A DNA stretch of 37,582 nucleotides from an uncultured Bacteroidales bacterium (GTDB taxonomy: Bacteria; Bacteroidota; Bacteroidia; Bacteroidales; Muribaculaceae), in assembly GCA_902782545.1 (NCBI GenBank), contig CACZNP010000174.1, positions 1 through 37,582 of the forward strand. The letters run 5' to 3'. The position numbers and the translations under genes were made by a program. The notes under the pieces were generated by a model. That model did not search any database and was not told the DNA's origin. It saw only the letters and a list, made by a program, of their open reading frames with translations. Shown one piece after another: positions 11,671 to 34,828 of the stretch. The first letter of the stretch is position 1. The number at the start of each line of letters is the position of its first letter.

Positions 11671-11739
11671 CAAAAATAACACTTTACGAAGGAATATTGG
11701 CAGCATATGGCTGATTTTTGTTTTTTTTCAGTAACTTTG
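11671..11739. promoter_or_regulatory. Divergent sigma-A -7 elements: TATTTTTG on - (11671-11678) for propeller 1 / amidase, and TAACTTTG on + (11732-11739) for pepD
   Basis: Both match TAnnTTTG and lie in the AT-rich divergent spacer. The -33 elements are imperfect. Confidence 0.55.
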
Positions 11740-11753
11740 TCTCTCAGAAAAAT

Positions 11754-15711: not shown

Positions 15712-16793
15712 TGATGAACAAAGACAGCAAAATCTATGTGGCCGGGCACCGAGGACTGGTGGGATCGGCCATTTGGCGGAACCTGGAGCAAAAAGGATAT
15801 AGCAGGCTGGTGGGACGCACACACGCCGAACTCGACCTGATGGACGGCAGCGCCGTGCGACAGTTCTTCGATGACGAGCAACCAGAATATGTGGTGCTGG
15901 CCGCGGCACACGTGGGAGGCATCATGGCCAACCTCAAGTACCGGGCCGACTTCATCTACCAAAACCTGCAAATCCAGCAAAACGTCATTGGCGAGAGTTG
16001 GCGGCATGGTGTCAAGAAACTGCTTTTCCTGGGGTCCACCTGCATCTATCCGCGCGAAGCGCCACAGCCCATCCCCGAGACAGCACTGCTCACCTCGCCA
16101 CTGGAATACACCAACGAGCCCTATGCCATCGCCAAAATTGCCGGGCTGAAGATGTGCGAGAGTTTTAACCTGCAGTATGGCACCAACTACATCGCCGTGA
16201 TGCCCACCAACCTGTACGGGCCGCGCGACAACTTCAATCTGGAAACCAGCCACGTGATGCCGGCCATGATCCGCAAGATGCACTTGGCAAAGATGCTCAA
16301 CGAAGGAAACTGGGAAGGACTGCGCGCCGACTTGGACGGCCGTCCCGTGGAGGGTGTCGACGGCAAGGCAAGCAACCCACAAATCATCGACATGCTGGCA
16401 AAATATGGCATTCACAGTGACCACTTGTTGCTGTGGGGAACCGGGAAACCCATTCGCGAGTTCCTGTGGAGCGAAGACATGGCCGATGCCAGCGTCTACT
16501 GCCTGGAGCATATCGACTTTGACGACGTGAAAGGCGACAACCCCGATGTGCGGAACTGCCACATCAACATTGGCAGCGGCGTGGAAATCACCATTAGGCA
16601 ACTCGCCGAACTGGTGCAACGCACCGTTGCCTACAACGGCCGCGTGGACTGGGATGCCACCAAACCCGACGGCACCCTGCGCAAACTCACCGACGTGAGC
16701 CGACTTCACAGCCTGGGATGGCGCCACCGCATGGAAATTGAGGATGGTGTGCCGGCATTGTACCACTGGTACCTCAACTCACTGCAACCATGA
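15711..16793 (+). CDS. fcl: GDP-L-fucose synthase
   Basis: IYVAGHRGLVGSA, AAAHVGGI, FLGSTCIYP, LEYTNEPYAIAK, PTNLYG, SHV. TAATG overlap with gmd. Confidence 0.95.
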   Translation: MMNKDSKIYVAGHRGLVGSAIWRNLEQKGYSRLVGRTHAELDLMDGSAVRQFFDDEQPEYVVLAAAHVGGIMANLKYRADFIYQNLQIQQNVIGESWRHGVKKLLFLGSTCIYPREAPQPIPETALLTSPLEYTNEPYAIAKIAGLKMCESFNLQYGTNYIAVMPTNLYGPRDNFNLETSHVMPAMIRKMHLAKMLNEGNWEGLRADLDGRPVEGVDGKASNPQIIDMLAKYGIHSDHLLLWGTGKPIREFLWSEDMADASVYCLEHIDFDDVKGDNPDVRNCHINIGSGVEITIRQLAELVQRTVAYNGRVDWDATKPDGTLRKLTDVSRLHSLGWRHRMEIEDGVPALYHWYLNSLQP

Positions 16794-17359
16794 GCAAGGA
16801 AATCAAGAAGTGGACCACGCTGTCGAGCCGCTACATCATCCAGCGGCCGTGGCTCACGGCACGGGTCGACGAGGTGCAATTGCCCGACGGCCGTGTCAAC
16901 CCCGAGCACTATGTGCTGGAATACCCCGACTGGGTGAACGTCATCGCCATCACCCAAGAAGGCGACTTCGTGATGATACGCCAATACCGACACGCCATGG
17001 ACGTGGTGCTGCTGGAATTGTGCGCCGGAGTGGCCGAGCAAGGCGAGACCCCAGAACAGGCCGCACGGCGCGAATTGCGCGAAGAGACGGGCTACGGCGG
17101 CGGCAAGTGGCAGGAAATCATGACCATCGGGCAAAACCCCAGCATCTGCGACAACATCACCCACTGTTTTCTCGCCGAGGGGGTGGAGAAACTGGGCGAC
17201 CAACAACTCGATGACAGCGAGGACATCGAAGTGTTGCTCATGACCCGCCAACAAGTCTATGACGTCCTCAACGGCAATCACATGCTCCAAGCCCTCATGG
17301 CAGCACCCCTCTGGCGATACTTCGCCCAGCATCCTTCACCACAAAAGCAAGGCAAATAA
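16790..17359 (+). CDS. Nudix hydrolase, ADP-ribose/NDP-sugar pyrophosphatase (NudF/NudK-like)
   Basis: Canonical Nudix box GVAEQGETPEQAARRELREETG; RQYRH; NP downstream of the box; LDDSEDI. ATGA overlap with fcl. Confidence 0.85.
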   Translation: MSKEIKKWTTLSSRYIIQRPWLTARVDEVQLPDGRVNPEHYVLEYPDWVNVIAITQEGDFVMIRQYRHAMDVVLLELCAGVAEQGETPEQAARRELREETGYGGGKWQEIMTIGQNPSICDNITHCFLAEGVEKLGDQQLDDSEDIEVLLMTRQQVYDVLNGNHMLQALMAAPLWRYFAQHPSPQKQGK

Positions 17360-17371: not shown

Positions 17372-17419
17372 AATAACACGTGGGGGTGAGTGCTGTAACA
17401 CTCACCCCCACGGTGTATT
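17372..17419. terminator. Strong hairpin between the convergent gmd-fcl-Nudix and nuo/atp operons (bidirectional terminator)
   Basis: 14-bp perfect stem CGTGGGGGTGAGTG (17379-17392) / CACTCACCCCCACG (17399-17412) with AT-rich flanks. Confidence 0.85.
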
Positions 17420-17435: not shown

Positions 17436-18896
17436 TCAGATCAGGGCAAAGATGTTTTTCACGCTCTCGGAGATGGCGTCGAACTGTGCGTAAACCCCAC
17501 TGGCAACACCCAGCAAGATGATTCCGAACACGCTCACCGTGAGGCCGAGTTCCTCGGTCCAATGGCTGTCGATGTAAGGAATGGCGCAATCATCCTGGCG
17601 CAGGAACATGGCCTTGACCACCAACAGGTAGTAGTACAACGAGATGATGGTATTGACCAATGCAATCAGCACGAGCACATAAATCGCCACACTGCCTTGC
17701 TGGCAAGCACCCACAAAGATGAAGAACTTGCTGAAGAAACCGGCAAACGGCGGAATGCCACCCAACGAGAACATGGCCAGCATCATGGTGAACGCCAACC
17801 AAGGATTGGTGCGGAACAGGCCGTTGTAGTCGTCCATGCTCACCTTGCCCGTGGCACGCTCAATGACACCGATCACGCCAAAGGCGGCGAGATTGCTGAA
17901 GATGTAGACCAGAATGTAGTACATCATCGAAGCCATGCCGGTGGTGTTCACAGCGATGATGCCAAGCATGATGTAGCCAGCCTGCGAAATCGATGAGAAC
18001 GCCAGGAAACGCTTGAGATTGCGCTGACGCACGGCAAACAGGTTGCCCAGGGTGATGGTGAGCACGATGAGTGCATAGAGCATCCACTCCCACACATCGG
18101 CATAGGCCGAGCCAAACACCTGGACAAGTATCACCAGGAAGGAGAATGCGGCCGCACCCTTGCTGATGACCGACAGATAACTCGTCACTGCCGTGGGAGC
18201 ACCCTGATACACATCGGCCGTCCACAGATGGAACGGAACCAGCGACAACTTGAAGCCCACACCGGCAATGACAAATGCAACGGCGGCAATGAGCAACGCG
18301 CTCTTGTGGCCGATGATACTGGTGGCGATGTCGGTGAAGTAGAGCGAGCCGCTCATGCCATAGACAAACGAGATGCCCAGCATGAAAATGGCGCTTGAGA
18401 ACACCGCGGTGAAGATGTACTTGGCCGCGGCCTCGCGCGACTCGTAATACTTCTTCTCGAAGGCGGCCAATGCGGCAATGGGCAGCGAGGCCGTCTCCAG
18501 TCCGATGACGAACAACAGGAAGTGACGCGACGAAATCATCAGATACATGCCCAGCAACGTGAGCAACAACAACTCGAAGAACTCGCCGCGGCGCACTGCC
18601 ACATGATCGCTGTTGCTCCACTTGATGGACTGCAGCAGAACCAGCAGCACACCCAGATTGAGGATGTTCTTCATCACCCAAGTAGCCGGGTTGGCCTCAA
18701 ACATTCCGCCAAAGGCATGACCCATCTGACAGGGGACAAAACTGTATATCGTGAACAGGGCAAACAGGATGGTCGTGAACAAGGGCAACTTGTCCTGCGA
18801 GCGCTGCGGCATGAAAGTGTCGTAGATAAACACAAGCAAGAACACAAGCAAGAGGCCAAGTTCTTGCGGCATCAATAAAAATTGAGAATAATCCAT
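17436..18896 (-). CDS. nuoN: Complex I subunit N
   Basis: Antiporter-like membrane protein; GLE, EAAAKY, FKLSLVPFHLWTADVYQGAP, SISQAGY, GIPPFAGFFSKF. Confidence 0.95.
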   Translation of the reverse strand: MDYSQFLLMPQELGLLLVFLLVFIYDTFMPQRSQDKLPLFTTILFALFTIYSFVPCQMGHAFGGMFEANPATWVMKNILNLGVLLVLLQSIKWSNSDHVAVRRGEFFELLLLTLLGMYLMISSRHFLLFVIGLETASLPIAALAAFEKKYYESREAAAKYIFTAVFSSAIFMLGISFVYGMSGSLYFTDIATSIIGHKSALLIAAVAFVIAGVGFKLSLVPFHLWTADVYQGAPTAVTSYLSVISKGAAAFSFLVILVQVFGSAYADVWEWMLYALIVLTITLGNLFAVRQRNLKRFLAFSSISQAGYIMLGIIAVNTTGMASMMYYILVYIFSNLAAFGVIGVIERATGKVSMDDYNGLFRTNPWLAFTMMLAMFSLGGIPPFAGFFSKFFIFVGACQQGSVAIYVLVLIALVNTIISLYYYLLVVKAMFLRQDDCAIPYIDSHWTEELGLTVSVFGIILLGVASGVYAQFDAISESVKNIFALI

Positions 18897-18940
18897 AAGT
18901 CTGTATTATCAAGTTTTTTAAAGATTCAACACTTTCATTA

Positions 18941-20473
18941 TCACAAACCGGCCACCGGGAAGTAGTCCTTCAAGGCATTCACCACCGGCAGGAAACTGTC
19001 GCTGATGATATTCACAAAGAAGTTGGGGAAGCAACCGATAATGGCCACCGACACAATGAGTGTGGCGGTGGACAGGCGCTCCTCCCAGGAGGCATCGGTG
19101 AGTGTGCGGTGATGCTCGTCCTGCACCTCGCCAAAGAGCAACTTGGCCACCACGCGCAGGATATAGACCGCGGTGATGACAATGCTGCTGGCACCGATGA
19201 TGGTGAGCACGCGGCGGAACAAATCGGCATTCTCAAACGACCCGAAGAAGATGGTCATCTCGGCCGCAAAACCACTCAGGCCCGGCAAGCCCAGCGAGGC
19301 CAAGCCGGCGAGAACATATCCCACGCCCAGATAGGGCATGATGTGCATCATGCCACCCATGTCGCGGATGTCGCGCGTGTGGGTGCGACCATAAATCATA
19401 CCGATGAGCGCAAAGAACAAGGCTGTCATCAAGCCGTGCGACAACATCTGCAGCACCGCACCGGTCATCGCCGTGGTGTTGAACATGAGGATGGCAAACA
19501 GCACCATGCCGCAGTGGCTCACGCTGGAATAGGCGTTGATGTACTTGAGGTCGGTCTGCACACAGGCGCTGAAAGCACCGTACACAATGCTGATACCCGT
19601 GAGCGTGAGGAAAATCCATGCCAATTCGCTGGCGGCATAAGGCATCAGATAGATGGCAATGCGGAAACAGCCATAGCCTCCCAACTTCATCAGCACGCCG
19701 GCATGAAGCATCGACACCGCCGTGGGGGCCGAAGCATGACCGTCGGGCGACCATGTGTGGAACGGGAACATCGCACCCAGAACACCAAATCCCACAAACG
19801 TGAGTGGGAACAGGTACATTTGCCACTGATGCGGGATGGCATCGTTGTGGGCAATGTCGAGAATGTTCATCGTCAGGTTTCCGTCGGCGCTGCTGTGGAA
19901 GTAAATGCCAATCAGGCCCAGCATCAAGAATGCCGAGCCGCCCATGAGCATCAGTGTCAACTTCATGGCGCTGTAGTTCTTGTTGCCGCTGCCCCACACT
20001 CCAATAAGCAGATACATGGGGATAAGGGCCACCTCGTAGAACATGAACATCGTGAACAGGTCTATCGAGATGAAGAAACCAAACACACCTGTCGACAACA
20101 GGAAGAACCACAGGAAGAACTGCCGGGGCAGCGGATCCATCTTCCACGAAGCGAATACGCCCGCAAACACGATGAACGCCGACAGCAGGATCATTACCAC
20201 ACTCACTCCATCAACACCCAGTGCCAATTCGATGTTGAACGGTGCGTACCAGGTGACCTTGCTCTGCAAAATCATCTCGCTGGTGTCGCCGGCTCCACGT
20301 GCCTGCAAGAACAGGCACACCAGATACACGGCCAGGGCAACCAGTGCCACTGCACCGACAACGGCTACAGTCCTGATGGCGCGTATGCCACGGTTATTGC
20401 AAAACGCCAGCCCCAGCAACGTGAGCATGGGGATAATCACGAAATAAATCAAAGGATTACTGAAAATTTCCAT
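18941..20473 (-). CDS. nuoM: Complex I subunit M
   Basis: FYEVALIPMY, PFHTWSPDGHASAPT, LMKLGGYG, AYSSVSH, GLPGLSGFAAE. Confidence 0.95.
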   Translation of the reverse strand: MEIFSNPLIYFVIIPMLTLLGLAFCNNRGIRAIRTVAVVGAVALVALAVYLVCLFLQARGAGDTSEMILQSKVTWYAPFNIELALGVDGVSVVMILLSAFIVFAGVFASWKMDPLPRQFFLWFFLLSTGVFGFFISIDLFTMFMFYEVALIPMYLLIGVWGSGNKNYSAMKLTLMLMGGSAFLMLGLIGIYFHSSADGNLTMNILDIAHNDAIPHQWQMYLFPLTFVGFGVLGAMFPFHTWSPDGHASAPTAVSMLHAGVLMKLGGYGCFRIAIYLMPYAASELAWIFLTLTGISIVYGAFSACVQTDLKYINAYSSVSHCGMVLFAILMFNTTAMTGAVLQMLSHGLMTALFFALIGMIYGRTHTRDIRDMGGMMHIMPYLGVGYVLAGLASLGLPGLSGFAAEMTIFFGSFENADLFRRVLTIIGASSIVITAVYILRVVAKLLFGEVQDEHHRTLTDASWEERLSTATLIVSVAIIGCFPNFFVNIISDSFLPVVNALKDYFPVAGL

Positions 20474-20505
20474 CTTTTTATCGTCATTTTAAAGGACTGT
20501 CATTA

Positions 20506-22500
20506 TCAAATCAACACACACACCATCGTGACCGCTGCCAAGGCAAGGGCACCCACCAGGTAAATGTACACATAACTTTGCACACTGCCCGACTGCAACC
20601 GACGGATGGCAAACGAGGCCGAGCCGGTGGCATTGGCGAGCATATTGAAGAAACCATCGATGATGTGGCGGTCAAACCACGCAATGGGAACACAGATGCC
20701 CTGGAAAATCACCTTGTGGGTGATGAACTGGTAGAGTTCGTCCATATAGAAACGGTGATAGGCCGCTGTCCACAACCCGCTGGCAGCGTTCTTCATGCGC
20801 TCGGGCAAGTCGTTCTCTTTAAAATAGAGTTTGTAGGCCAGCAGAATGCCCACAAGGGCAATCGCCACACTCGACCCTGCCACTGTCCAGTCAAGTTGGG
20901 TGTGCAGGTGATGGCCGTTCCAAGTCACCAGGTCATGGGCCGGTACAAATCCTGCCACCACCGAGACGGCAGCCAGGATGATGAGCGGCAACGTCATGGT
21001 CCAGGGCTGGTCCTTGGGCGCATGATGCGTGTGCACTTCGTGTTTCTTCCAGAAGAAAATCAGGAAATAAATGCGGAACATGTAGAATGCCGTCATTCCG
21101 GCCACCATGCTCATCCACAGCCCCCAGAAGAAGCCTTTGTGATAGGCAGCCACCAGAATCTCATCCTTGCTCCAAAAGCCTGCAAACGGCGGGATGCCCG
21201 CAATGGCCAAACAGCCAATGAGGAATGCGATACTGGTAATGGGCATGAATTTGTGCAAGCCGTGCATCTTGTCGTTCTCGTTGCTGTGAACGGCGTGGAT
21301 AATGGCACCGGCACACAGGAAAAGCAACGCCTTGAACATGGCGTGCGTGAACAGGTGGAACATCGAGGCCATATAGCCCAATCCGGTGCCACCGTGTATC
21401 TCTATCAAGGCGCCATCGGCACTGCTCACCGCCAACGAGGTCATCATGAAAGCGATTTGAGAGATGGTGGAGAATGCCAGCGCACGCTTGATATCGCTCT
21501 GCACACAGGCGATGGCCGCGGCATAGAATGCTGTGAAAGCACCCACCACACAAATGATTTCCATAGCACCCTGCTCAATCACATAGAGCGGGAACAGACG
21601 TGCCACCAGGAACACACCGGCCACCACCATCGTGGCAGCATGGATCAAGGCCGACACAGGCGTGGGACCCTCCATGGCATCGGGCAGCCAAATGTGCAAC
21701 GGGTACATGGCACTCTTGCCGGCACCGCCAATGAAGATAAACGTCAGTGCCCAAGCCGTGACCGAGCAACCCAAGAAGGTGGCCCCTCCGGCGCTCGCAA
21801 TGGCGCTTTGGGCAACTGCCATGTCATTGGCACCATTGGAACCGAACACCAACTGATTAAAGTCGAATGTGCCTGTGTAGTAACTCAGTATCATGATACC
21901 CAGCAGGAAGAACAAGTCGGCCAAACGGGTAACAATAAATGCTTTTTTGGATGCATGATTGGCGGCAGGGCTGCTGTAATAGAACCCGATGAGCAAATAG
22001 GACGACACACCCACCATCTCAAAGAACACGAATATCTGGAACAAATTGGTGGCCACCACCAGTCCCAGCATCGAGAAGGTGAACAATGCCAAGAAGGCAT
22101 AGTAACGCTGGAAACCTTCTTCGGGGTTGCCGTCGTGATCGCTCATGTAGCCCAAACTGTAGAGATGCACCATGAACGAGACGGTGCACACCACAATCAG
22201 CATCATGGCGGCGATGGGGTCGAGCAAGATGCCCATGCGCACAACCAGCGTGTCGGTAAATGACAACCAATCGGGGTTGAACACCGTCACCGCTTGGCGC
22301 ACACCATCGGCAATCTGGCCCTGCCCTGTCCCAAAGAAATAAGTCAGCGCAACACCGTAGGCTATCACCGTTGTGACCGCCATGCCCAACACACCCAGCA
22401 CTCCTGTGAGTTTTCTACTCATTTTCACGCCTGCCAGTCCCAAGAACAGGAACATGAACAGCGGAATGGCTATAACTGCTATCGTATAACTTAATGGCAT
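20506..22500 (-). CDS. nuoL: Complex I subunit L
   Basis: EMVGVSSYLLIGF, KSAMYPLHIWLPDAMEGPTPVSALIHAATMV, FHLFTHAMFKALLF, GFWSKD; C-terminal lateral helix QSGSVQSY. Confidence 0.96.
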   Translation of the reverse strand: MPLSYTIAVIAIPLFMFLFLGLAGVKMSRKLTGVLGVLGMAVTTVIAYGVALTYFFGTGQGQIADGVRQAVTVFNPDWLSFTDTLVVRMGILLDPIAAMMLIVVCTVSFMVHLYSLGYMSDHDGNPEEGFQRYYAFLALFTFSMLGLVVATNLFQIFVFFEMVGVSSYLLIGFYYSSPAANHASKKAFIVTRLADLFFLLGIMILSYYTGTFDFNQLVFGSNGANDMAVAQSAIASAGGATFLGCSVTAWALTFIFIGGAGKSAMYPLHIWLPDAMEGPTPVSALIHAATMVVAGVFLVARLFPLYVIEQGAMEIICVVGAFTAFYAAAIACVQSDIKRALAFSTISQIAFMMTSLAVSSADGALIEIHGGTGLGYMASMFHLFTHAMFKALLFLCAGAIIHAVHSNENDKMHGLHKFMPITSIAFLIGCLAIAGIPPFAGFWSKDEILVAAYHKGFFWGLWMSMVAGMTAFYMFRIYFLIFFWKKHEVHTHHAPKDQPWTMTLPLIILAAVSVVAGFVPAHDLVTWNGHHLHTQLDWTVAGSSVAIALVGILLAYKLYFKENDLPERMKNAASGLWTAAYHRFYMDELYQFITHKVIFQGICVPIAWFDRHIIDGFFNMLANATGSASFAIRRLQSGSVQSYVYIYLVGALALAAVTMVCVLI

Positions 22501-22505
22501 AATCG

Positions 22506-22817
22506 TTAGAATTTCAGTTTGAGGATTTGCTGAATGTCCACATTCTTGGTGGCACGGAAGATGTTAATCACGATGGCCAGGGCCAGCGCTGTCTCAGCAG
22601 CCGCAATGGCTATGGCAAACAGGGTGAAGAACATGCCGTCCAACTGTCCGGGGAACAAATAGCGGTTAAAAACTACAAAGTTGATATCCACCGAGTTGAG
22701 CATCAACTCCAAGGAAATCATGATGGCAATCATGTTTTTGCGGGTGATGAACCCGTACACACCACAGCCAAACATGAAGAGGCTGGGAATGAGATACATC
22801 AATAACGTCAAGTTCAT
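22506..22817 (-). CDS. nuoK: Complex I subunit K
   Basis: ISLELMLNSV and AIAAAETALAL (both conserved Glu present). Confidence 0.95.
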   Translation of the reverse strand: MNLTLLMYLIPSLFMFGCGVYGFITRKNMIAIMISLELMLNSVDINFVVFNRYLFPGQLDGMFFTLFAIAIAAAETALALAIVINIFRATKNVDIQQILKLKF

Positions 22818-22829
22818 AATCCTTCCTCC

Positions 22830-23345
22830 TTATCTTTTACGGGCAATAACCACTCCACCTATGATACAAGCCAACAACAGAATGCTGACAGCCTCAAAGG
22901 GCAACAGATAGCCCCACTTGTCGGTGCTCAACAGAAAATGACCTATGGTGGCCATGTCCAAGTCGGCTACGGTGGCCAACTGACGTCCACAGAACGCCGC
23001 ATGACTGAACACCGCATAACCGCACACGGCAATGCCCAACACCGCTGCCGACAAACCCAGCCAGCGACGATGGGTCGAGAGGGGCTCAGCGTCGGCACCG
23101 GGCTTGTGGGTGAGCAGGATGGCAAACACAAACAGCACCACAATGCCGCCTGCATACACGGCTATCTGAACGGCTCCCAGGAACTGATAATCCATCTGGA
23201 AGTAGAGGATGGCCGTGGCAAAGAGCACAAAGAGCAGGTAGGTGGCCGAGCGCAGGATTTGCCGCGTGGTGACGGTCAGCACCGAAAACACGATGATTGC
23301 AATCGCTATAACGAAATACAAAATGATATTTCCTACTGATTCCAT
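22830..23345 (-). CDS. nuoJ: Complex I subunit J
   Basis: VQIAVYAGGIVVLFVF, LPFEAVSILLL. Confidence 0.95.
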   Translation of the reverse strand: MESVGNIILYFVIAIAIIVFSVLTVTTRQILRSATYLLFVLFATAILYFQMDYQFLGAVQIAVYAGGIVVLFVFAILLTHKPGADAEPLSTHRRWLGLSAAVLGIAVCGYAVFSHAAFCGRQLATVADLDMATIGHFLLSTDKWGYLLPFEAVSILLLACIIGGVVIARKR

Positions 23346-23347
23346 GT

Positions 23348-23887
23348 TTATTGTTTTTCTTGATTATCGGGGGTTTCTGCACTCGGAGCACCGCCGGGGG
23401 CTGCAGCCGCAGGCTGGGGAGCGGGAACCGGCTCATCTTTCTCGGGCAGGTAGTTAAGTTGCTTCACCAACGACTCGCGACGGAACACCGCCTGCTCAAA
23501 ATCGTTGCTGAACTCAATGGCGTGGAACGGGCACGAGGTGACACACAGGTCGCAGAATGTGCAACTGCCCAAGTCATAGATGTACTTGTCCAGTTTTTGC
23601 TTCTTCTTGCCATTGGGCATGTCTACCGTGCGCGTTGTGATGGTGATGGTGCCATTGGGACAATTGCGCTCACAGGTGCGGCATGCCGTGCACTTGTGAT
23701 TGCCGTCGGCGTCGTAGATAAACTGCAACGTGGCACGGAAACGGTCAGGAATGTGCAGGGTGTCGCGGTTCTCGGGATACTGCTCCGTGACCTTGGGTGT
23801 CACCAACTCCTTGCCGGTGACCGCCATTCCTTTCAACAGGCTGACAAAGCCGCTGAAAAGTGAGGCGAAATACTCCTTAATGCTCAT
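23348..23887 (-). CDS. nuoI: Complex I subunit I (2x[4Fe-4S])
   Basis: VTEQYPE; CTACRTCERNCP and CTFCDLCVTSCP; Pro/Ala-rich tail. Confidence 0.93.
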   Translation of the reverse strand: MSIKEYFASLFSGFVSLLKGMAVTGKELVTPKVTEQYPENRDTLHIPDRFRATLQFIYDADGNHKCTACRTCERNCPNGTITITTRTVDMPNGKKKQKLDKYIYDLGSCTFCDLCVTSCPFHAIEFSNDFEQAVFRRESLVKQLNYLPEKDEPVPAPQPAAAAPGGAPSAETPDNQEKQ

Positions 23888-23938
23888 ATCTAAGTTTTAA
23901 GTGTTATTTTTTAGTGTCAATAACCGTTATTTCAACTT

Positions 23939-24826
23939 TCATCGTTCTACCTGTCCGCCCAAGATGTCGAGCAACTCGGTGGTAATGCTCTGCTGGCGCA
24001 ACTTGTTGTACTCCAAATTGAGCGAGTCGAGCAGTTCCTTGGCGTTGTCGCTGGCCGTCTGCATGGCCATCACTCGGGCGGCCTGCTCGCTGGCAGCACT
24101 CTGCGTGAACACATCCTGCATCATGGCACGGATGTGCAAGGGCAGCACGCTGTCAAAGATTGTGGCGGCATCGGGCTCAAACAGGCAAGGAGAATTGGCC
24201 GCACGGGCATCCACGCTCTCGGCCAACGCCTGATAACTGACTGGCAGTAACTGGTCCCTGCTGAACACCTGTCGACTGGGAGACTTAAAACGCACGTACA
24301 ACACCTCCACACGGTCAAATTCACCCTCCAGAAAACGAGTCTTCAGGTCGTCGGTGAAATCATGCAACTCCTCATGGGTGCTGCGTGTGTTCAAGTGCTC
24401 GTTTTTGAGCATCCGCAAATCGTCACCGGCAATTTTCGACACCGCCTTGGTGAGTTTGCGGCCCACAGGAACAACCGTGACTTGAACATGGTCGCCGTAC
24501 TGCTTTCGCACGCTATCGATGGTGGCGAGCAACTGCTTGAAGATGTTGATGTTGAAAGCACCGCACAAGCCATCGTCACTACCAAACACCACCAAGGCCA
24601 CACGCTGCACTTCGCGCTCGGCAATCAATGCCGACTCAAAATGCTCATCGGTGACCAGCAGGTGACTGATGACACTCTGCACCATCGTGCGGTAGGGCGA
24701 CAATCGCTGAAGTTGCTGCGTGGCCTTACGCATCTTGGCCGACGAAATCATCTTCATGGCGCTTGTCGTCTTCTGTGTCGAGGCGACCGAACCAATGCGG
24801 GTTTTTAATTCTCGTAGTGTTGACAT
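23939..24826 (-). CDS. atpG: F1 ATP synthase gamma subunit
   Basis: TQKTTSAMKMISSAK, SDDGLCGAFN, SEQAARVMAMQTASDNA, YNKLRQQSITTEL. Confidence 0.96.
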   Translation of the reverse strand: MSTLRELKTRIGSVASTQKTTSAMKMISSAKMRKATQQLQRLSPYRTMVQSVISHLLVTDEHFESALIAEREVQRVALVVFGSDDGLCGAFNINIFKQLLATIDSVRKQYGDHVQVTVVPVGRKLTKAVSKIAGDDLRMLKNEHLNTRSTHEELHDFTDDLKTRFLEGEFDRVEVLYVRFKSPSRQVFSRDQLLPVSYQALAESVDARAANSPCLFEPDAATIFDSVLPLHIRAMMQDVFTQSAASEQAARVMAMQTASDNAKELLDSLNLEYNKLRQQSITTELLDILGGQVER

Positions 24827-24844
24827 AGGTCAAGTTTCTTCAGT

Positions 24845-26422
24845 TCATTGGGCATACTTGGCGATAATCTCCTGGGCAGCGGCTTTGAGTTTTTCGGTCA
24901 CATCGTCATCGATCTTGCCTTGACGCAACACGTCGAGCACATCGGCCTGATGCTTGCCTCGCAAGTAATGGATGAACAATTTCTCAAACTCGCCCACCTG
25001 CTCCACGGGCACCTTTTGGAGCAAGCCGTTCACACCGCAGTAGATGACTGCCACCTGTTCCTCGACGGCCATGGGCTCGTACTGGGGTTGCACCAGCAGC
25101 CGCTCGTTCTTGCGACCGGTGTCGATGGTGCGGGCGGTCACCGGGTCGATGTCGCCACCAAACTTGGTGAACGCCTCGAGTTCACGGTATTGTGCCTGGG
25201 CAATCTTGAGGGTACCGGCCACACGCTTCATGCACTTGATTTGCGCGTTGCCACCCACACGGCTCACCGAGATACCCACATTCACTGCCGGACGGATACC
25301 TGCATTGAAAAGGGCTGTCTCCAGATAAATCTGGCCGTCGGTGATGGAAATCACGTTGGTGGGAATATAGGCACTCACATCGCCAGCCTGCGTCTCGATA
25401 ATGGGAAGTGCCGTGAGCGACCCACCACCCTTGACAATGGGCTTGAGGGCCTCGGGCAGGTCATTCATCACACTGGCCACATCCTGGTTCTCGTTGATTT
25501 TCGCGGCGCGTTCCAGCAAGCGGCTGTGCAAGTAGAAAATATCGCCAGGATAAGCCTCGCGGCCCGACGGACGCTTAAGGATCAGCGAAATCTCACGATA
25601 GGCCACAGCATGCTTCGACAGGTCATCGTAAATGACCAGCGCATCGCGACCGGTGTCACGGAAATACTCGCCGATGGCTGCTCCCGCAAAGGGCGCATAG
25701 TAACGCATCGAGGCCGAGTCGGCTGCTGTGGCAGCCACTATGATGGTGTAGGGCAAAGCCCCTTGCTCTTCGAGTTTGTTGACCAGTGCCGCAACCGTCG
25801 AAGCCTTTTGACCGATGGCCACATAGATGCAGTACACGGGCTTGCCGGCCTCGTAGCCACCTTTCTGATTGATGATGGTGTCGAGTGCGATGGCAGTCTT
25901 GCCAATCTGTCGGTCACCAATGATAAGTTCTCGCTGGCCACGGCCAATGGGAATCATCGAGTCGATGGCCTTGAGACCCGTTTGCAACGGCTGGTTCACC
26001 GGCTGGCGGAAAATCACGCCAGGGGCTTTACGCTCCAGCGGCAGACGCAGGCGGTCGCCGTCGATGGGTCCCTTGCCGTCGATGGGCTCGGCCAGCACGT
26101 TGATTACGCGTCCCAGCAGCCCCTCGCCCACTTGGATGGAGGCGATTTCACCGGTGCGGCGCACCTTCATGTTCTCGGAAACCGAGTCCACCTCGTTGAG
26201 CAAAATCACACCCACATCACTTTCCTCAAGGTTCATGGCCACGCCGGTGACGCCATTCTCGAACTCCACGAGTTCGTTGGCCTCAACATTGTTCAAGCCA
26301 TAGACGTGCGCCACGCCGTCGCCCACCTCGAGCACGGTACCGACCTCCTCAAAGGTGACACTCCGTTGCAGGTCACTGAGTTGCTGTTTTAGTATGTCGG
26401 ATATTTCGCTTGGGTTAATCAT
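24845..26422 (-). CDS. atpA: F1 ATP synthase alpha subunit
   Basis: [57 protein letters not shown]. Confidence 0.98.
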
Positions 26423-26438
26423 CTGTAAGAAATGTTTT

Positions 26439-26978
26439 TTACTTTTGGAGTTTTAAACGCAATGTCTTCAATTCATTCTTGATCGATGCGTCGAGCAGGA
26501 TGTCGTCAATCTTGACGGTAAACCCGCCAATCAAGTCGGGTTTGACGGTTTGTTCCACTTCGAGCGTCATGTCGCCCAGCCGTTGCTTGACAACATCCAC
26601 TATGGCATCGACCTCTTTGGTCGGCAATTCGCTGGCAGTGGCAATCTCCACCTTGGCGATGTTGTGCTCGGCACGATAGAGGTTCACATAAGAGAGGGCT
26701 ATCTTCCGCAAGAAACCGGCACGGTTGTTGCGGATGACCAGCAAGATGAATTTGTCGAGCGAACTTCCGGGCTTGGCACCAGCGGCTTCGAGCATGACGC
26801 GTCCCTTCTCCTCATCGGGGATATAGGGATTGAGCACCACGCGCTTCAGTTCGTCGATGGCCGTGTAGCGGAAGTTGAGCCGCTTGAGTTGGGCGTAGAT
26901 TTGGTCGGCATCGCCATTTTCTACGGCCAGTTTGTAAAGCGCTTTGGCATAACGCCGCGGAATCAGTCCGTCACTCAT
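26439..26978 (-). CDS. atpH: F1 ATP synthase delta subunit
   Basis: [16 protein letters not shown]...LDASI. Confidence 0.93.
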
Positions 26979-26984
26979 AGTTCA

Positions 26985-27482
26985 TCAGTTTTTGGTCTCT
27001 ACCTCACTCAGATACTGTTCAACCAGTTCCTGCTGCGCCTTGTCGGTGGCAACCTCGCGTCGAATCACTTTCTCGGCGATTTGCAGTGCGATTTCACCTA
27101 TTTCCTGGCGCAGTTGCTTCTCAGTCTCCTTGCGAGCCTGCTCGATGGATACCTGAGCCGCTTGCGAAACTTTCTTGGCTTCGATGGCGGCCTCGCCACG
27201 CGCATCCTCGATGATTTGGTTGCGCATCTTGGCCGCATCGCGCAAGATGTCGGCCTGTTGCAGTCGTGCATCGGCCAGCACCTTGTCGGCCTCGGCCTTG
27301 GCGTTGTCCAGTTTTGACTTGGCCTCTTGTGCATAGGCCACACCCTTGTCAATCAAGTTGGCACGATCCTCCATACTCTTGATGATGAAGGGCCATGCAT
27401 ACTTGGCAAGGATGAAGTACAGGCACAGGAATGCCACAAACATCCAGAACACCAGGCCAAATTCAGGCGTGAAAAGTTCCAT
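26985..27482 (-). CDS. atpF: Fo ATP synthase b subunit
   Basis: PEFGLVFW, single TM, KYAWP, coiled coil, IAEKVI. Confidence 0.93.
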   Translation of the reverse strand: MELFTPEFGLVFWMFVAFLCLYFILAKYAWPFIIKSMEDRANLIDKGVAYAQEAKSKLDNAKAEADKVLADARLQQADILRDAAKMRNQIIEDARGEAAIEAKKVSQAAQVSIEQARKETEKQLRQEIGEIALQIAEKVIRREVATDKAQQELVEQYLSEVETKN

Positions 27483-27497
27483 GAGAAACCGAAAGAA

Positions 27498-27749
<252 letters not shown>

Positions 27750-27781
27750 TTAATTGTTAATATTTTGTTTTTAATGTTTTC

Positions 27782-28861
27782 TCAATGTGTCGACTCGGCG
27801 TGGTGGGGTTCCACCAGCGCCATGGATATGAAGATGGTGCTCAAGATGGTGAACACATAAGCCTGAATGAAACTCACCAGCGTGTCGAGCAACAGCATGA
27901 ACAAGGTGAATGCCACCGAGAACAATGCCGTGCCACCACCAACGACCACACCAAACAGATTGGTGAAGATGAAAATGAGCAACACCAGCACCAGCACCAC
28001 CATGTGGCCGCTCATCATGTTGGCAAACAGACGAATCATCAATGCCAACGGCTTGGTGAAGATACCCAGCACTTCGATGATTTGCATCATGGGAACAGGG
28101 CACTTGAGCGCCATGGGCACCTCGGGCCAGAAGATTTCCTTCCAGTACTCCCGCGTGCCGCTGAATGTGGTGATCAAGAACGTGAGCAAAGCCAGCACCA
28201 AGGTCACGGCAATGTTACCCGTCAGGTTGGCACCTCCGGGGAAAATCACAATCAGCCCAAGCAGGTTCATCGTCAGAATGAAGAAAAACGCTGTGAGCAG
28301 ATAGGGGGCATACTTGGCGGCGTGCTTGCCCAGAATGGGGCGGATTGTGTCGCTGTACACAAAATCCACCACAAGTTCCAGGAACCCCGTGGCGCGACGT
28401 GGCGCTTTCATGCCGTTGCGGGCATACCACCGCCGCAATCCCATCACCATGATAACCACGACGATGGCCGCAATGATGATTCCCGCCACATTCTTCGTGA
28501 TGGAGAAATCCCAGGGGCGCACCTCACTGCCATCGGGCAGCACTTGAACCAATTTGCCGTGATGTTCCTCGCTGGTGGAGATTTTGAATCCCTCGAAGGT
28601 CTCTCCGCCCGTGATGCGATTGCTCATAAAGCAGTGCAGGCCATCCTGGCCCCATGCGATGATGGGAAGGGGGATGCGACTGCTGTGGTTGAAGGGCACC
28701 TCCCAGCCGTAGGCATCGCCCAAGTGCTCAAAAATGGTCTCCTTGGGGTTCAACTCGCTGTTGCCGCTGTGCGCCCGGTGCTGGACCGAACTGTAATAGC
28801 CCAGTCCCATTAGCACCACTACCGCTAATCCGACAACATACGCTATGATTTTACCTTTCAT
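27782..28861 (-). CDS. atpB: Fo ATP synthase a subunit with the long Bacteroidetes N-terminal extension
   Basis: IFEHLGD, DFSITKNV, GGANLTGNI, essential Arg in IRLFANMMSGH, IQAYVFTIL. Confidence 0.95.
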   Translation of the reverse strand: MKGKIIAYVVGLAVVVLMGLGYYSSVQHRAHSGNSELNPKETIFEHLGDAYGWEVPFNHSSRIPLPIIAWGQDGLHCFMSNRITGGETFEGFKISTSEEHHGKLVQVLPDGSEVRPWDFSITKNVAGIIIAAIVVVIMVMGLRRWYARNGMKAPRRATGFLELVVDFVYSDTIRPILGKHAAKYAPYLLTAFFFILTMNLLGLIVIFPGGANLTGNIAVTLVLALLTFLITTFSGTREYWKEIFWPEVPMALKCPVPMMQIIEVLGIFTKPLALMIRLFANMMSGHMVVLVLVLLIFIFTNLFGVVVGGGTALFSVAFTLFMLLLDTLVSFIQAYVFTILSTIFISMALVEPHHAESTH

Positions 28862-28877
28862 AATCTTGTGTATATTC

Positions 28878-29114
28878 TCAATACAAGCAAACCGACACCA
28901 CGTTGTTCTTCACGTCGGCCACGCCACCATGAATTTCGCGGCTCTCGGTACGGCCTTCGGCCACCCAACTCACTGTGCCTTTGGTCAAAGCGGCAATGAG
29001 GGCGGCATGGTTCTTGAGCACTTGGAACTGCCCCATTACACCAGGCAAAGTCACTAGTTCCACCGCGCCCTCGAACTCAATCTGCTCGGCCGATATGATT
29101 TTGAGTGTCATCAT
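28878..29114 (-). CDS. atpC: F1 ATP synthase epsilon subunit (N-terminal beta-sandwich only)
   Basis: VTLPGVMGQFQVLKNHAALI, HGGVADV; 78 aa with no C-terminal helices. Confidence 0.92.
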   Translation of the reverse strand: MMTLKIISAEQIEFEGAVELVTLPGVMGQFQVLKNHAALIAALTKGTVSWVAEGRTESREIHGGVADVKNNVVSVCLY

Positions 29115-29132
29115 CTCTTATATATTGTTCCA

Positions 29133-30668
<1,536 letters not shown>

Positions 30669-30692
30669 TTATTGTTTATTCTTTATCGATTG

Positions 30693-31769
30693 TCAAAAGT
30701 GCCAGCCGTTGGTCACCACCAAGGCCATCACCACCAGGTTCACCAGCCCTATGGGCATGAGATAACGCCATTCAAGGGCCAGCATCTGGTCGATGCGCAC
30801 ACGCGGGAATGACCAGCGTATCCACATGAAGACGAAGGTCATGAAAAAGGCCTTGCCCAGGAACCAAACCAGCGAGGGAATGTAATCCATCACAGCGTTG
30901 AAACCATCCCAGCCGGGAATGTGCAAAGGCATCCAGCCACCCAAGAACAACAGGGCTGCAATGCCACTGACCACAAACAGGTTCAGATACTCGGCCAGAT
31001 AGAACAGGCCGTAATGGATTCCCGAATACTCGGTGTGGTAGCCGGCGGTCAACTCATGCTCGGCCTCAGGAAGGTCGAACGGGCCACGGTTGTTCTCGGC
31101 ATTGGCTGCAACGATGTAGATGATGAATGCCACAATGGCAGGCAGATGGCCCTTGAACAAGAACCAACCGTCGTTCTGTGCCTCGACAATGCCACTGATC
31201 GACATTGTGCCGGCCAGACACACCATCGTGAGCACCGAAATGCCCACCGACAACTCATAACTGATCATTTGGGCACCGCTGCGCATGGCACCAATCAATG
31301 TGTACTTGCTGTTGCTCGACCAGCCTGCCAGCAGAATTCCCAGCACGCCAATCGACGAGACGGCGATGATGAAGAAAGCGCCGATGTTCATGTCCACAAT
31401 TTGCATTCCCTTGCCCCAAGGCAGGCATGCAAAGGTCATCACCGATGCAATCACCACCAGGAACGGGGCTAAAAAGAACAGGAACTTGTCGGTGTGCCAC
31501 AGGGTGATGATTTCCTTGGTCAAAATCTTGAACACGTCGGCAAAAATCTGCAACGAGCCGCCAGGACCCACACGGATGGGGCCGCGACGGCACTGTATCC
31601 AGCCGCACACCCAACGCTCGTACATGATGTAGAACATGGCCAGCACCGAATAGGCCAGCAGCAGCACCAGTGCCACGATGACACACTCCAGCGTCGTCGC
31701 CAGCCAGTCTGGCATGGCCTCATTGAACACATGGTTAAGCCATTTTGTGACTATACTAAAGTCGAACAT
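30693..31769 (-). CDS. nuoH: Complex I subunit H
   Basis: ERWVCGWIQCRRGP, ADVFKILTKE, GAMRSGAQMISYE, RGPFDLPEAEHELTAGYHTEYSG, PRVRIDQ. Confidence 0.96.
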   Translation of the reverse strand: MFDFSIVTKWLNHVFNEAMPDWLATTLECVIVALVLLLAYSVLAMFYIMYERWVCGWIQCRRGPIRVGPGGSLQIFADVFKILTKEIITLWHTDKFLFFLAPFLVVIASVMTFACLPWGKGMQIVDMNIGAFFIIAVSSIGVLGILLAGWSSNSKYTLIGAMRSGAQMISYELSVGISVLTMVCLAGTMSISGIVEAQNDGWFLFKGHLPAIVAFIIYIVAANAENNRGPFDLPEAEHELTAGYHTEYSGIHYGLFYLAEYLNLFVVSGIAALLFLGGWMPLHIPGWDGFNAVMDYIPSLVWFLGKAFFMTFVFMWIRWSFPRVRIDQMLALEWRYLMPIGLVNLVVMALVVTNGWHF

Positions 31770-31805
31770 AATCGTATCTTGTTAAGTGTTAAGTTCTCTA
31801 ATCCT

Positions 31806-33455
31806 TTACCTGTCAATATCGGGAATCACAAAGTCGATCGAAGCCGTGATGGTAATCAGGTCGGCAATCATGTTGTCGCGACACGTGAGGTCCACCACAC
31901 CCACCCGATTGAAACAGGGCGACTGGAAGTGCATGCGGTAGGGCTTCTGGAACGGCTTGGGGTCGCCATCACTCTCGATGTAGACACCAAACGCGCCACG
32001 CGAGGCCTCCACTTGCTGATACCAGTGTCCGGCGGGCAACTTGATGAGTTTGGGCACCTTGGCAGCCACATATTCGTTGCCTTCCTCGGCCTCAAGTTTG
32101 TCGCAGGCCTGGCGCAGAATCTTGATGCTCTGCTCCATCTCCTTCATGCGCACCATGTAGCGTGCCATGCTGTCGCCCGCTGTGTCGAGCACCTCGTCAA
32201 AGTCGAACTCGTTGTAGAGCGAGTAAGGATGGGTTTTGCGCACATCGCAATGCACCCCGCTGGCACGTCCACTGGGACCGGTCACAGCATAATCGATGGC
32301 CTGCTCACGGCTCAGCAATCCCACGCCGATCATGCGGTTGCGGGCAATGACATTGCCTGTGAACAGTTGGTGATACTCCTTGAGGGCTTTCTCAATGACA
32401 TCGCAAGCGTGGCGAACGTCTTTCACAAAGTCGGGATGAACATCGGCCACCACGCCACCGATGGTGGCATAACTCATCGACATGCGTGCGCCGCAGGTCT
32501 TGTCGAAAATATCATAAATCAACTCACGCTCACGGAATCCGTAGAAAAATGCCGTGGTGGCGCCTTGGTCCATAGTCAGACACCCGTAACTGAGCAGGTG
32601 CGACGACAGACGCATCAACTCGTCCATCATCAAGCGGATAAGTTCCGCGCGATGGGGCACCTCGATGCCCAGCGCCTTCTCAATGCACATGCACAGGCAG
32701 TGGCGGTTGATGTGAGCAGCCATGTAGTCCATGCGCTCGGTGTAGAGCAGGGTCTGCGGATAAGTGAGGCTCTCGCACATCTTCTCGATGCCACGGTGAA
32801 TGTATCCACTCACCACATCCACCTTCTTGATGATCTCACCGTCGAGCGAAGCGCGGTAGCGCATCACTCCGTGCGTGGATGGATGCTGAGGCCCAAAGTT
32901 GATGACATACTCATCGTCTTCAAACACCTTGCCGTCCACTTTGGTCACTTGGCCGTTCTCGTCCTCCACCCAGCGGCAGGTATAGTCCTCGTTGGGTTCA
33001 TCGTCGAGTCGCAGCGGGTTGAGTTCGGGGTTGTCGTCGTAGTCCTTGCGCAGGGGGTGTCCCACCCAGTCGCTACGCAGGAAAAAGCGGCGCATGTCGG
33101 GGTGGTTGATGAACACGATGCCAAAGAAATCATAAACCTCGCGTTCTTGGTAATTGGCCACCGACCACAGGTCACTCACACTGTGCAAGCGGGGGTTCTC
33201 GCGGTCGGCAGTGGCCACCTTCACATGAATCACCTCCTGTGTGTCGGTGTTGGTCAGGTAGTAGACACATCCCATCGAGTCTTTCCAGTCCACACCCACC
33301 AGGGCGGTGAGGTAGTCGAAGTGCAGTTTCTCCTTCAGGGCCTGTGCCAAGCAGTGCCAGTGAGCATCGTCCACAGTCACCAACAGAAACTCTCCGTCGG
33401 TGTCGAATTGTGCTTGTGGGCACAACTCACTGATTTTATCTTTCAATTCTGCCAT
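31806..33455 (-). CDS. nuoCD: Fused complex I subunit C/D
   Basis: NuoC part EREVYDFFGI...GHPLRKD. NuoD part NFGPQHPSTHGV, GYIHRGIEK, ERMDY, C-terminal DFVIPDIDR. No NiFe CxxC motifs. Confidence 0.95.
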   Translation of the reverse strand: MAELKDKISELCPQAQFDTDGEFLLVTVDDAHWHCLAQALKEKLHFDYLTALVGVDWKDSMGCVYYLTNTDTQEVIHVKVATADRENPRLHSVSDLWSVANYQEREVYDFFGIVFINHPDMRRFFLRSDWVGHPLRKDYDDNPELNPLRLDDEPNEDYTCRWVEDENGQVTKVDGKVFEDDEYVINFGPQHPSTHGVMRYRASLDGEIIKKVDVVSGYIHRGIEKMCESLTYPQTLLYTERMDYMAAHINRHCLCMCIEKALGIEVPHRAELIRLMMDELMRLSSHLLSYGCLTMDQGATTAFFYGFRERELIYDIFDKTCGARMSMSYATIGGVVADVHPDFVKDVRHACDVIEKALKEYHQLFTGNVIARNRMIGVGLLSREQAIDYAVTGPSGRASGVHCDVRKTHPYSLYNEFDFDEVLDTAGDSMARYMVRMKEMEQSIKILRQACDKLEAEEGNEYVAAKVPKLIKLPAGHWYQQVEASRGAFGVYIESDGDPKPFQKPYRMHFQSPCFNRVGVVDLTCRDNMIADLITITASIDFVIPDIDR

Positions 33456-33502
33456 ATTTTATTAAAAGGTAGGGTTGTTGTTTCTACGTTGGGTCTCACA
33501 AA

Positions 33503-34099
33503 TCACTTCTCGGCGACATATTCCAGTCGTTTCTCCTTGCGGTTGGCACCACCCAGGAACTTGCTCACCTTGATTTTGCGTTGCAACTGCATCAAGGCAT
33601 AGAACATGGCCTCGGGGCGCGGAGGGCAGCCAGGAAGGTACACATCCACGGGAATGATCTCGTCGATGCCCTTGACCACACAATAACTGTTCTTGAACGG
33701 GCCACCACTCACGGTGCAGGCTCCGCAAGCAATCACATACTTGGGCTCGGCCATCTGTTCGTACAGACGCTTCAGGGCGGGGGCCATGCGATAGGTGATG
33801 GTTCCCTGGCACATGATGTAGTCGGCCTGACGGGGGCTGTTGCGGGCCACCTCGGCACCAAAACGGGCCATGTCGTAGCGGGCGGCTCCCAGACACATGA
33901 ACTCAATGGCGCAGCAACTGGTGCCAAAGCAGAACGGCCACAGCGAGTTGCTGCGGCTCCAGTTGAGCAATTGGTCGAGTTTACCCACCACCACGTTCAC
34001 GCCTCCGGCGTTCAACTCGGCCACGAGTTGCTCGATGTACTCATTGTCCTTGAAGTCTTCATACTTCATGCTCTTGATGCGAGGTTTTTTCACTTCCAT
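33503..34099 (-). CDS. nuoB: Complex I subunit B
   Basis: Start reassigned to ATG 34099 (MEVKKPRIK). Tandem-Cys [37 protein letters not shown]. Overlaps the nuoA stop. Confidence 0.95.
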
Positions 34100-34464
34100 C
34101 TCAACGCTCCTTTCTTCCAGGCATAAGCCAGACCTAAAACAAGAATCACCAGAAAAGTACCCACGGCCAGCAGGGCCTGATTGCCCAGCGAACGGCAGAT
34201 GGTTGCCCACGGGAACAAGAACACCGTTTCCACATCGAACATCAAGAACAAGATGGCAAACAGGTAATAACCCACATGGAACTGTGCCATTGAATCACCG
34301 CGGGTGGGAATTCCACACTCGTAGGGCTCACCTTTTTTCTTGGTGTAACTGCGAGGCCCCACAATCCATGCGATAATCAAGGCTCCGGCCACCAGTACCA
34401 CAGCAGTGATTGCCGCCGTGACCGCCAGTGTCGTACTTTGAATACCGAAAATTGATGTATCCAT
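34090..34464 (-). CDS. nuoA: Complex I subunit A
   Basis: Start reassigned to ATG 34464 (MDTSIFG). [31 protein letters not shown]. Confidence 0.95.
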
Positions 34465-34588
34465 AAATATTAGTCTAAGTTTGTATTTTTCTCGACCTGT
34501 AACACAAATACGCCACAACCATCTCACTCACACCTCTTTACCTCTCACAAAGGGCTTTGGCGCGACCGAGACAGTGCGTTTTGTTGCG

Positions 34589-34596
34589 CAAAGATA
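34589..34596 (-). promoter_or_regulatory. Sigma-A -7 element (TATCTTTG) for the nuo-atp-nuo unit
   Basis: caaagata on + strand, ~125 nt upstream of the nuoA ATG. No consensus -33 element. Confidence 0.55.
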
Positions 34597-34791: not shown

Positions 34792-34823
34792 ATTGCATGT
34801 GTGGAGCGGGTTTCGTAATTTTG
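34792..34823 (+). promoter_or_regulatory. Sigma-A promoter ATTG-N20-TAATTTTG immediately before the TBDR start codon
   Basis: TAATTTTG at 34816-34823, followed by CGGCC and ATG at 34829. Confidence 0.6.
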
Positions 34824-34828
34824 CGGCC

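What the first reader, a model, noticed from the sequence alone, without database searches (positions are those of the whole stretch)
17436..34596. Entire F1Fo ATP synthase operon nested inside the complex I operon (nuoA-B-CD-H-[atpD-C-B-E-F-H-A-G]-nuoI-J-K-L-M-N)
Seen: 18 contiguous minus-strand genes with spacers of about 55 nt or less. The atp block (23939-30638) sits exactly between nuoH and nuoI. Both junction spacers (30639-30692 and 23888-23938) are short and AT-rich, with no hairpin, no TAnnTTTG box and no transposase or repeat scar. There is one -7 box upstream of nuoA and one strong hairpin after nuoN. All genes look intact. Established: nuoH-nuoI adjacency is highly conserved, and Bacteroides-type genomes keep nuo and atp in separate loci. 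Inference: this is a ~17 kb superoperon that forces co-expression of a proton pump and a proton-coupled ATPase as one chemiosmotic module. The membrane-arm genes nuoI-N could only be transcribed by reading through atp. It could reflect a switchable H+ circuit, a physical supercomplex, or a unit gained and lost together. I know of no described example of this nesting.
Basis: partly seen in the sequence, partly recalled or inferred. Interest (0 to 1): 0.9.

Follow-up and report, generated by a model that had tools for sequence, protein, structure and literature searches.

The report
ATP synthase genes inside complex I
The eight ATP synthase genes really do sit in the middle of the complex I gene row, but this is the old, inherited layout of the gut family Muribaculaceae and six sister families, it was noted in print in 2016, and it likely puts a proton pump and a proton-driven ATP synthase under one promoter.

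Summary
Confirmed and not a misassembly: nuoA-B-CD-H-[atpD-C-B-E-F-H-A-G]-nuoI-J-K-L-M-N, spacers at most 54 nt; contigs from two sequencing studies bridge both junctions. Not new: Ormerod 2016 (PMC4936053) states that the F-type ATP synthase is integrated within the complex I locus of this family, and this scan found it before in two other genomes. The order was seen in 34 of 35 family genera sampled and in six sister families, and it has one origin on RpoB and Nuo trees. Comparative support for one promoter: the Bacteroides -7 box precedes nuoA in 82 of 107 nested loci and stand-alone atpD in 29 of 36, but nested atpD in 9 of 128. No V/A-type ATPase was found in 30 nested genomes. Co-transcription is untested, as RNA data were too thin. 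Side finding, absent from this window: some relatives carry a covarying, single-copy pseudoknot-like RNA in the atpG-nuoI spacer, not in Rfam.

The parts
34589..34596 (-). Bacteroides-type -7 promoter box TATCTTTG, predicted sole promoter of the cluster
   Evidence: box within 200 nt of nuoA in 82 of 107 nested loci; consensus from PMC7366714
34090..34464 (-). nuoA (124 aa)
33503..34099 (-). nuoB (ATG at 34099, overlaps nuoA by 10 nt)
31806..33455 (-). nuoCD fused (549 aa)
30693..31769 (-). nuoH (358 aa)
30639..30692 (-). nuoH-atpD junction, 54 nt, AT-rich, no -7 box
   Evidence: bridged by contigs in runs X1 and X4
29133..30638 (-). atpD, F1 beta (501 aa)
   Evidence: TIGR01039 above cut-off
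28878..29114 (-). atpC, F1 epsilon, N-terminal beta-sandwich only (78 aa)
27782..28861 (-). atpB, Fo a subunit (359 aa); no extra membrane gene between atpC and atpB
27498..27737 (-). atpE, Fo c subunit (79 aa), predicted H+-type
   Evidence: Na+ motif recalled
26985..27482 (-). atpF, b subunit
26439..26978 (-). atpH, delta subunit
24845..26422 (-). atpA, F1 alpha (525 aa)
   Evidence: TIGR00962 above cut-off
23939..24826 (-). atpG, F1 gamma (295 aa)
23888..23938 (-). atpG-nuoI junction, 51 nt; lacks the pseudoknot-like element that some relatives carry here
   Evidence: bridged by contigs in X1 and X4
23348..23887 (-). nuoI (two 4Fe-4S motifs)
22830..23345 (-). nuoJ
22506..22817 (-). nuoK
20506..22500 (-). 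nuoL
18941..20473 (-). nuoM
17436..18896 (-). nuoN
17379..17412 (-). 15-pair hairpin, predicted terminator between nuoN and a convergent Nudix gene

Best explanation
An F1Fo ATP synthase operon moved in between nuoH and nuoI of an 11-subunit complex I operon, most likely once, in the ancestor of Muribaculaceae and six sister families, and the 18 genes are likely read from the single promoter before nuoA. Shown: the order, its inheritance, and the near absence of a promoter box before nested atpD. Inferred: the complex, which lacks NuoEFG, would take electrons from reduced ferredoxin or flavodoxin (pyruvate:ferredoxin oxidoreductase is encoded), pass them to menaquinone and fumarate reductase, and pump H+. 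The predicted H+-type F1Fo, the only rotary ATPase found in this clade, would spend that gradient on ATP, while Nqr runs a separate Na+ circuit. Once the essential atp genes depended on the nuoA promoter, the layout would be hard to undo and would help keep nuo. Amounts of the two complexes would then be tuned after transcription.
For: Order and intact genes. Both junctions bridged in runs of two studies. nuoH directly before atpD in 77 of 80 GTDB loci. Nested in 34 of 35 family genera, the 35th on a contig too short to tell, and in 7 genomes of six other families. One side of a branch on RpoB (16 rows, 100/99) and on NuoB/CD/H/I (12 rows, 100/99), with matching inner branching on AtpD/A/G/B. 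TAnnTTTG within 200 nt: nuoA 82 of 107, nested atpD 9 of 128, nuoI 3 of 101 or 9 of 124 with a wider locus set, stand-alone atpD 8 of 9 and 21 of 27. G000 encodes NqrA (47), fumarate reductase/Sdh flavoprotein and PFOR (70); NuoF-type PF01512 and RnfC (48) were not found. V/A-ATPase subunit A found in 0 of 30 nested and 9 of 15 non-nested genomes. nuoI found in 121 of 121 family genomes, nuoH in 68 of 161 order genomes at E<=1e-60. Joint loss of both in genome H5 (PMC4936053). B. fragilis NUO has no NADH activity and is proposed to use another donor and pump H+ (PMC7002350).
Against: No transcript evidence: none of the listed RNA contigs of X19 and X20 reaches either junction. The promoter counts are over related genomes, not independent events, and other sigma factors were not tested. 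The electron donor is unknown: PMC10542786 argues that the ferredoxin role is not established, and a B. fragilis nuo deletion had no fitness cost. The clade-wide correlates (no V-ATPase, nuo kept) rest on one evolutionary event. RnfC is still present in 13 of 29 nested genomes, so Nuo is not simply an Rnf substitute. G000 is 83% complete, so absences in it are weak.
Confidence: 0.6

Rival explanations
1. Frozen accident: a neutral rearrangement placed atp inside nuo, the atp promoter decayed, and the order persists only because breaking it would silence essential genes. There is no selection for co-regulating pump and synthase.
For: One origin only; all other Bacteroidales checked keep the operons apart (and coordinates in 22 against 43); the junction tolerates a 716-aa surface-protein gene; hairpins are common at atpG-nuoI (45 of 122 unique spacers fold at -8 kcal/mol or lower).
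Against: The order is kept across seven families with NuoH down to 61% identity, and a structured element arose at one junction. Neither excludes this reading, which also overlaps the best explanation.
Confidence: 0.3
2. Reverse use: F1Fo mainly hydrolyses fermentative ATP to energise the membrane, and the complex I-like enzyme spends the gradient (reverse electron flow or ion homeostasis).
For: No V/A-type ATPase was found in 30 nested genomes, so F1Fo could be the main ATP-driven pump; epsilon lacks its C-terminal domain, which in other bacteria restrains hydrolysis (recalled).
Against: Fumarate reductase and Nqr are encoded, giving a forward chain; stand-alone atp operons have an equally short atpC hit, so this is not special to the nested form.
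Confidence: 0.12
3. The two complexes form a physical supercomplex, and nesting serves co-translational assembly.
For: Only the gene order; all nested operons lack the ~130-aa membrane gene between atpC and atpB (0 of 108 loci have a gap over 130 nt), so assembly may differ.
Against: No fused genes or shared extra subunit in the cluster. Two stand-alone operons (G030, G269) also lack that gene. G269 carries a nested-type atp operon apart from a different Nuo.
Confidence: 0.05
4. Misassembly of the MAG contig.
For: G000 is a fragmented assembly (294 contigs).
Against: Junctions bridged in runs of two studies; same order in 77 of 80 GTDB loci.
Confidence: 0.005

Closest known systems
Complex I locus with integrated F-type ATP synthase in S24-7 / 'Ca. 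Homeothermaceae' (Muribaculaceae); Ormerod et al. 2016, PMC4936053
   Same: [quoted passage not shown]
   Different: The passages give one sentence, with no insertion point, promoter analysis or reach beyond the family. Here the point is nuoH|nuoI and the trait extends to six sister families. The paper's supplementary figure S4 was not seen.
Headless 11-subunit NUO of Bacteroides fragilis and Prevotella (PMC7002350, PMC10542786)
   Same: Same subunit set; no NADH module; donor unknown (passages read).
   Different: There the operon is ten contiguous locus tags (BF638R_0850-0841), is poorly expressed and is dispensable. Here it encloses the atp genes.
Bacteroidales atpD-C-(membrane gene)-B-E-F-H-A-G operon
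   Same: Same order of the eight genes and a similar c subunit.
   Different: The ~130-aa membrane gene, present in 7 of 9 stand-alone operons examined, is missing; the promoter box is mostly lost; the proteins form a long-branched clade.
N-ATPase / alternate F1Fo (atpDCQRBEFAG, order recalled)
   Same: Starts with atpD-atpC ahead of the Fo genes.
   Different: Separate delta gene, no atpQ/atpR; alpha and beta score below the alternate-ATPase cut-offs and above the ordinary ones.

Membership tests
S24-7/Muribaculaceae integrated nuo-atp locus | F-type ATP synthase genes inside the complex I locus | tested here: met
S24-7/Muribaculaceae integrated nuo-atp locus | Host belongs to Muribaculaceae | tested here: met
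   Many of the nearest named records are titled Muribaculaceae (others carry looser labels such as Prevotellaceae or Bacteroidales); the three named AtpG hits say Muribaculaceae; G000's family code is shared by these relatives but is itself unnamed
11-subunit complex I-like oxidoreductase | NuoA,B,C,D,H,I,J,K,L,M,N all present | tested here: met
11-subunit complex I-like oxidoreductase | No NuoEFG module | tested here: met
   None in the cluster; PF01512 not found in G000 (83% complete), found in 2 of 4 relatives as 636-666 aa frames that were not examined
11-subunit complex I-like oxidoreductase | Quinone reduction coupled to H+ pumping | not testable with these tools
   needs biochemistry
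H+-type F1Fo ATP synthase | alpha, beta, gamma, delta, epsilon, a, b, c with catalytic motifs | tested here: met
   (Walker A in alpha and beta, DELSD in beta, conserved Arg motif in a; motif patterns recalled)
H+-type F1Fo ATP synthase | c subunit with acidic residue but without the Na+ signature | tested here: met
   IEG with Ile at the Gln position; signature recalled, ion not measured
N-ATPase | atpQ and atpR genes, no separate delta | tested here: not met
   TIGR03324 563.5 < 750.5 and TIGR03305 549.8 < 752
Single 18-gene operon | One transcript across both junctions | tested here: inconclusive
   No listed RNA contig reaches the junctions; promoter-box counts favour it
Known Rfam RNA (for the atpG-nuoI element of relatives) | Score at gathering threshold | tested here: not met
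   0 matches in 14 loci; only chance-level matches in one locus

The most novel reading that the evidence does not exclude
The nested locus is a regulated proton-circuit operon whose balance is set by an undescribed cis-acting RNA. In at least eight Muribaculaceae genera an H-type pseudoknot between atpG and nuoI (hairpin loop ATRCC pairing with a downstream GGYAT, covarying, one copy per genome) acts as a processing or decay barrier that uncouples ATP synthase output from nuoI-N, and lineages such as this window's have lost it.
Probability: 0.3. Interest if true: 0.6.

Novelty: already known. Interest (0 to 1): 0.27.

Why it matters
As a gene order it is a known, clade-wide trait, useful as a marker for Muribaculaceae and six sister families. 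Its remaining value is as a handle on an open question, what the headless complex I of gut Bacteroidales does: here it is tied to the only rotary ATPase found and is kept in all 121 family genomes searched, so a cultured Muribaculaceae may show a phenotype that B. fragilis does not. The pseudoknot-like spacer in relatives is a concrete, testable RNA candidate.

Tried and rejected
RNA evidence: X19 and X20 hold only 5-6% of the words; the listed contigs are short and none reaches a junction, so no conclusion. Foreign origin of the atp block: its proteins are long-branched, and a first test was rejected (p-AU 9.8e-05), but that test forced G269 out, which is unfair. With G269 allowed in, a tree close to the RpoB one was not rejected (p-AU 0.106), so transfer into the clade is not shown; the nested rows alone are only 68/53 on the atp tree. 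V-ATPase search with PF01496 at E<=1e-20 was uninformative, since only 1 of 14 controls rang; it was replaced. rpoB was not found in G000, so relatives stand in for it on the tree; G244 and G250 also lack a hit. The apparent break after nuoI in G047 is a run of N, with nuoJ-M elsewhere beside another gap. The E. coli-type promoter at the nuoH stop was rejected as chance. Mobile-repeat origin of the pseudoknot was rejected: one hit per genome, always at this junction, and one chance-like descriptor hit inside coding-like sequence in G000. L204 matched the pattern but is a plain hairpin and was dropped before alignment; L112 is misaligned in A1. The AtpG homolog search added only three source names. 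No complex prediction was run, as no specific contact is claimed. Paper searches that found no further description: (listings only); preprint 10.64898/2026.09.22.753630 has no mention of nuo, ATP synthase or Muribaculaceae in its main text.
Full report
Observation. The window is contig C174 of G000 (2.09 Mb, 294 contigs, 83% complete). NCBIfam names 18 consecutive minus-strand frames as nuoA, B, CD, H, atpD, C, B, E, F, H, A, G, nuoI, J, K, L, M, N. Each is single-copy in the genome and spacers are at most 54 nt. The -7 box TATCTTTG is at 34596-34589 (consensus from PMC7366714, passage read), a 15-pair hairpin follows nuoN, and neither junction holds the box.

Not an artefact. Contigs of runs X1 and X4 (two studies) bridge both junctions; X1, the best holder, may be the source sample. 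In the genus, nuoH is followed by atpD in 21 of 22 loci, while 7 of 7 loci of other families have nuoH-nuoI. Of 80 GTDB loci, 77 have nuoH directly before atpD. The exceptions are two with an inserted gene and one with nuoH-nuoI, titled as a Flavobacteriales bin. 65 of the 80 reach and show atpG-nuoI; 14 of the other 15 end too early and one is the nuoH-nuoI locus.

Reach. nuoI was found in 121 of 121 family genomes of 35 genera. atpG precedes nuoI in 28 of the 30 loci returned, 2 being cut by contig ends. Regions from the 22 genera not clearly covered by those loci show the nesting in 21, one contig being too short. Among the 30 best loci of an order-wide search, 7 genomes of six other families (f129, f99, f59, f100, f75, f27) are nested and 20 are canonical. 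For 20 genomes with hits in both, nuoH and atpD lie on different contigs or at least 30 kb apart. The other nuoH hits were not all inspected. Nested genomes form one side of a branch on RpoB (100/99) and on NuoB/CD/H/I (100/99), and the atp tree branches alike inside the clade: one old event, then joint inheritance. The sister families are unnamed handles.

Prior description. Ormerod et al. [quoted passage not shown] Two earlier notes of this scan reached the same verdict on other genomes; I had found the paper and the sister families before reading them.

One promoter. TAnnTTTG lies within 200 nt of nuoA in 82 of 107 unique nested loci and of stand-alone atpD in 8 of 9 and 21 of 27, but of nested atpD in 9 of 128 and of nuoI in 3 of 101 (9 of 124 in the wider set). 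nuoCD, nuoH, atpB, atpE and atpA give 0-2 of about 105-126, but nuoM gives 9 of 33 and nuoN 4 of 33. These are related genomes, not independent trials. RNA runs were too thin to test read-through.

The atp block. No nested locus (0 of 108) has room for the ~130-aa membrane gene that 7 of 9 stand-alone operons carry between atpC and atpB (no Pfam match for four examples). Nested atp proteins form a long-branched clade with one stand-alone operon, G269 of f125, whose RpoB and Nuo lie elsewhere. A transfer involving G269 is therefore likely, its direction unknown, and foreign origin of the nested block is not shown.

Likely working. G000 encodes NqrA, a fumarate reductase/Sdh flavoprotein and PFOR; NuoF-type, RnfC and V-type subunits were not found. 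V/A-ATPase subunit A was found in 0 of 30 nested and 9 of 15 non-nested genomes. RnfC was found in 8 of 22 family genomes (0 of 4 of the genus), 5 of 7 sister-family genomes and 12 of 15 non-nested ones. The c subunit lacks the recalled Na+ signature, as do those of relatives. In B. fragilis the same 11-subunit enzyme has no NADH activity and is proposed to pump H+ from an unknown donor (PMC7002350, passages); a ferredoxin donor has been proposed and disputed (PMC10542786, passages). I therefore read the locus as a likely H+ circuit under one promoter (0.6), with a frozen accident as the main rival (0.3).

Against strict lock-step. L031 carries a 716-aa BspA-repeat and dockerin gene between nuoH and atpD in the same orientation, and L049 has the same gene after nuoH, cut by the contig end. 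45 of 122 unique atpG-nuoI spacers fold at -8 kcal/mol or lower, against 12 of 126 nuoH-atpD spacers; the former are also longer, and 25 and 5 respectively reach z<=-2 against shuffles.

Side finding. 30 of 123 unique atpG-nuoI spacers match a loop-tail pattern; a similar pattern hits 32 of 130 loci at this junction and at most 1 at each of 17 other junction types. In 29 aligned rows the 7-pair helix is 96.6% paired, 3 pairs change on both sides (G-C 16, A-U 11, G-U 2 at one pair), and slid controls give 27-41%. The rows were picked by a pattern that fixes the invariant letters but not the match of the variable ones, and they are related, so the 0/500 shuffle figure is not a probability. In 26 spacers a script found a stem enclosing the 5' strand, 0-3 nt to its 3' side and a 13-38 nt linker (65 in one), the geometry of an H-type pseudoknot. 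A model built on it hit 16 of 121 genomes once each, all at this junction; 5 of them were not in training and all 5 keep the pairing. It missed three training genomes, so it undercounts. It does not hit the window or match Rfam, and searches found no description. Its function is untested.

Verdict. Interest 0.27.

Noticed in passing
L072:17785-17886 (+), L159:7536-7661 (-), L299, L303, L305, L307; atpG-nuoI spacers: Covarying H-type pseudoknot-like RNA, single copy per genome, in genera g1, g25, g37, g41, g43, g44, g47, g48; often followed by a small hairpin just before the nuoI start; absent from the window.
   Followed up: partly
L031:11139-13289 and L049:2349-3605: BspA-type leucine-rich-repeat gene (with a dockerin in L031) inserted right after nuoH in the same orientation in two close relatives; G024 also has a second, ordinary nested copy (L163).
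   Followed up: partly
L227 / L311 (G269:C71): A stand-alone atp operon of the nested type in a distant family, a likely horizontal transfer of unknown direction.
   Followed up: partly
G295:C34:42223-75558 (L309, L310): In a non-nested family, atp, rnf and nuo lie on one strand within about 33 kb.
   Followed up: partly
L211, L212 (G303, G174; family f30): The nuo row ends at nuoL, with no nuoM or nuoN in the next 9 kb.
   Followed up: no
upstream of nuoM in nested loci: TAnnTTTG within 200 nt of the nuoM start in 9 of 33 loci; may be a coding coincidence or an internal promoter.
   Followed up: no
G005:C118:15848-16363, G019:C12:20898-21413: NuoF-like (PF01512) frames of 636-666 aa in two genus members, possibly hydrogenase subunits; a candidate donor module that G000 seems to lack.
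   Followed up: no
window 14650-17359 (+), 11718-13220 (+), 6125-8545 (-), 34793-37045 (+): Neighbours look unrelated: GDP-mannose dehydratase, GDP-fucose synthase-like gene, Nudix hydrolase, dipeptidase, T9SS-sorted amidase, TonB-dependent receptor.
   Followed up: no
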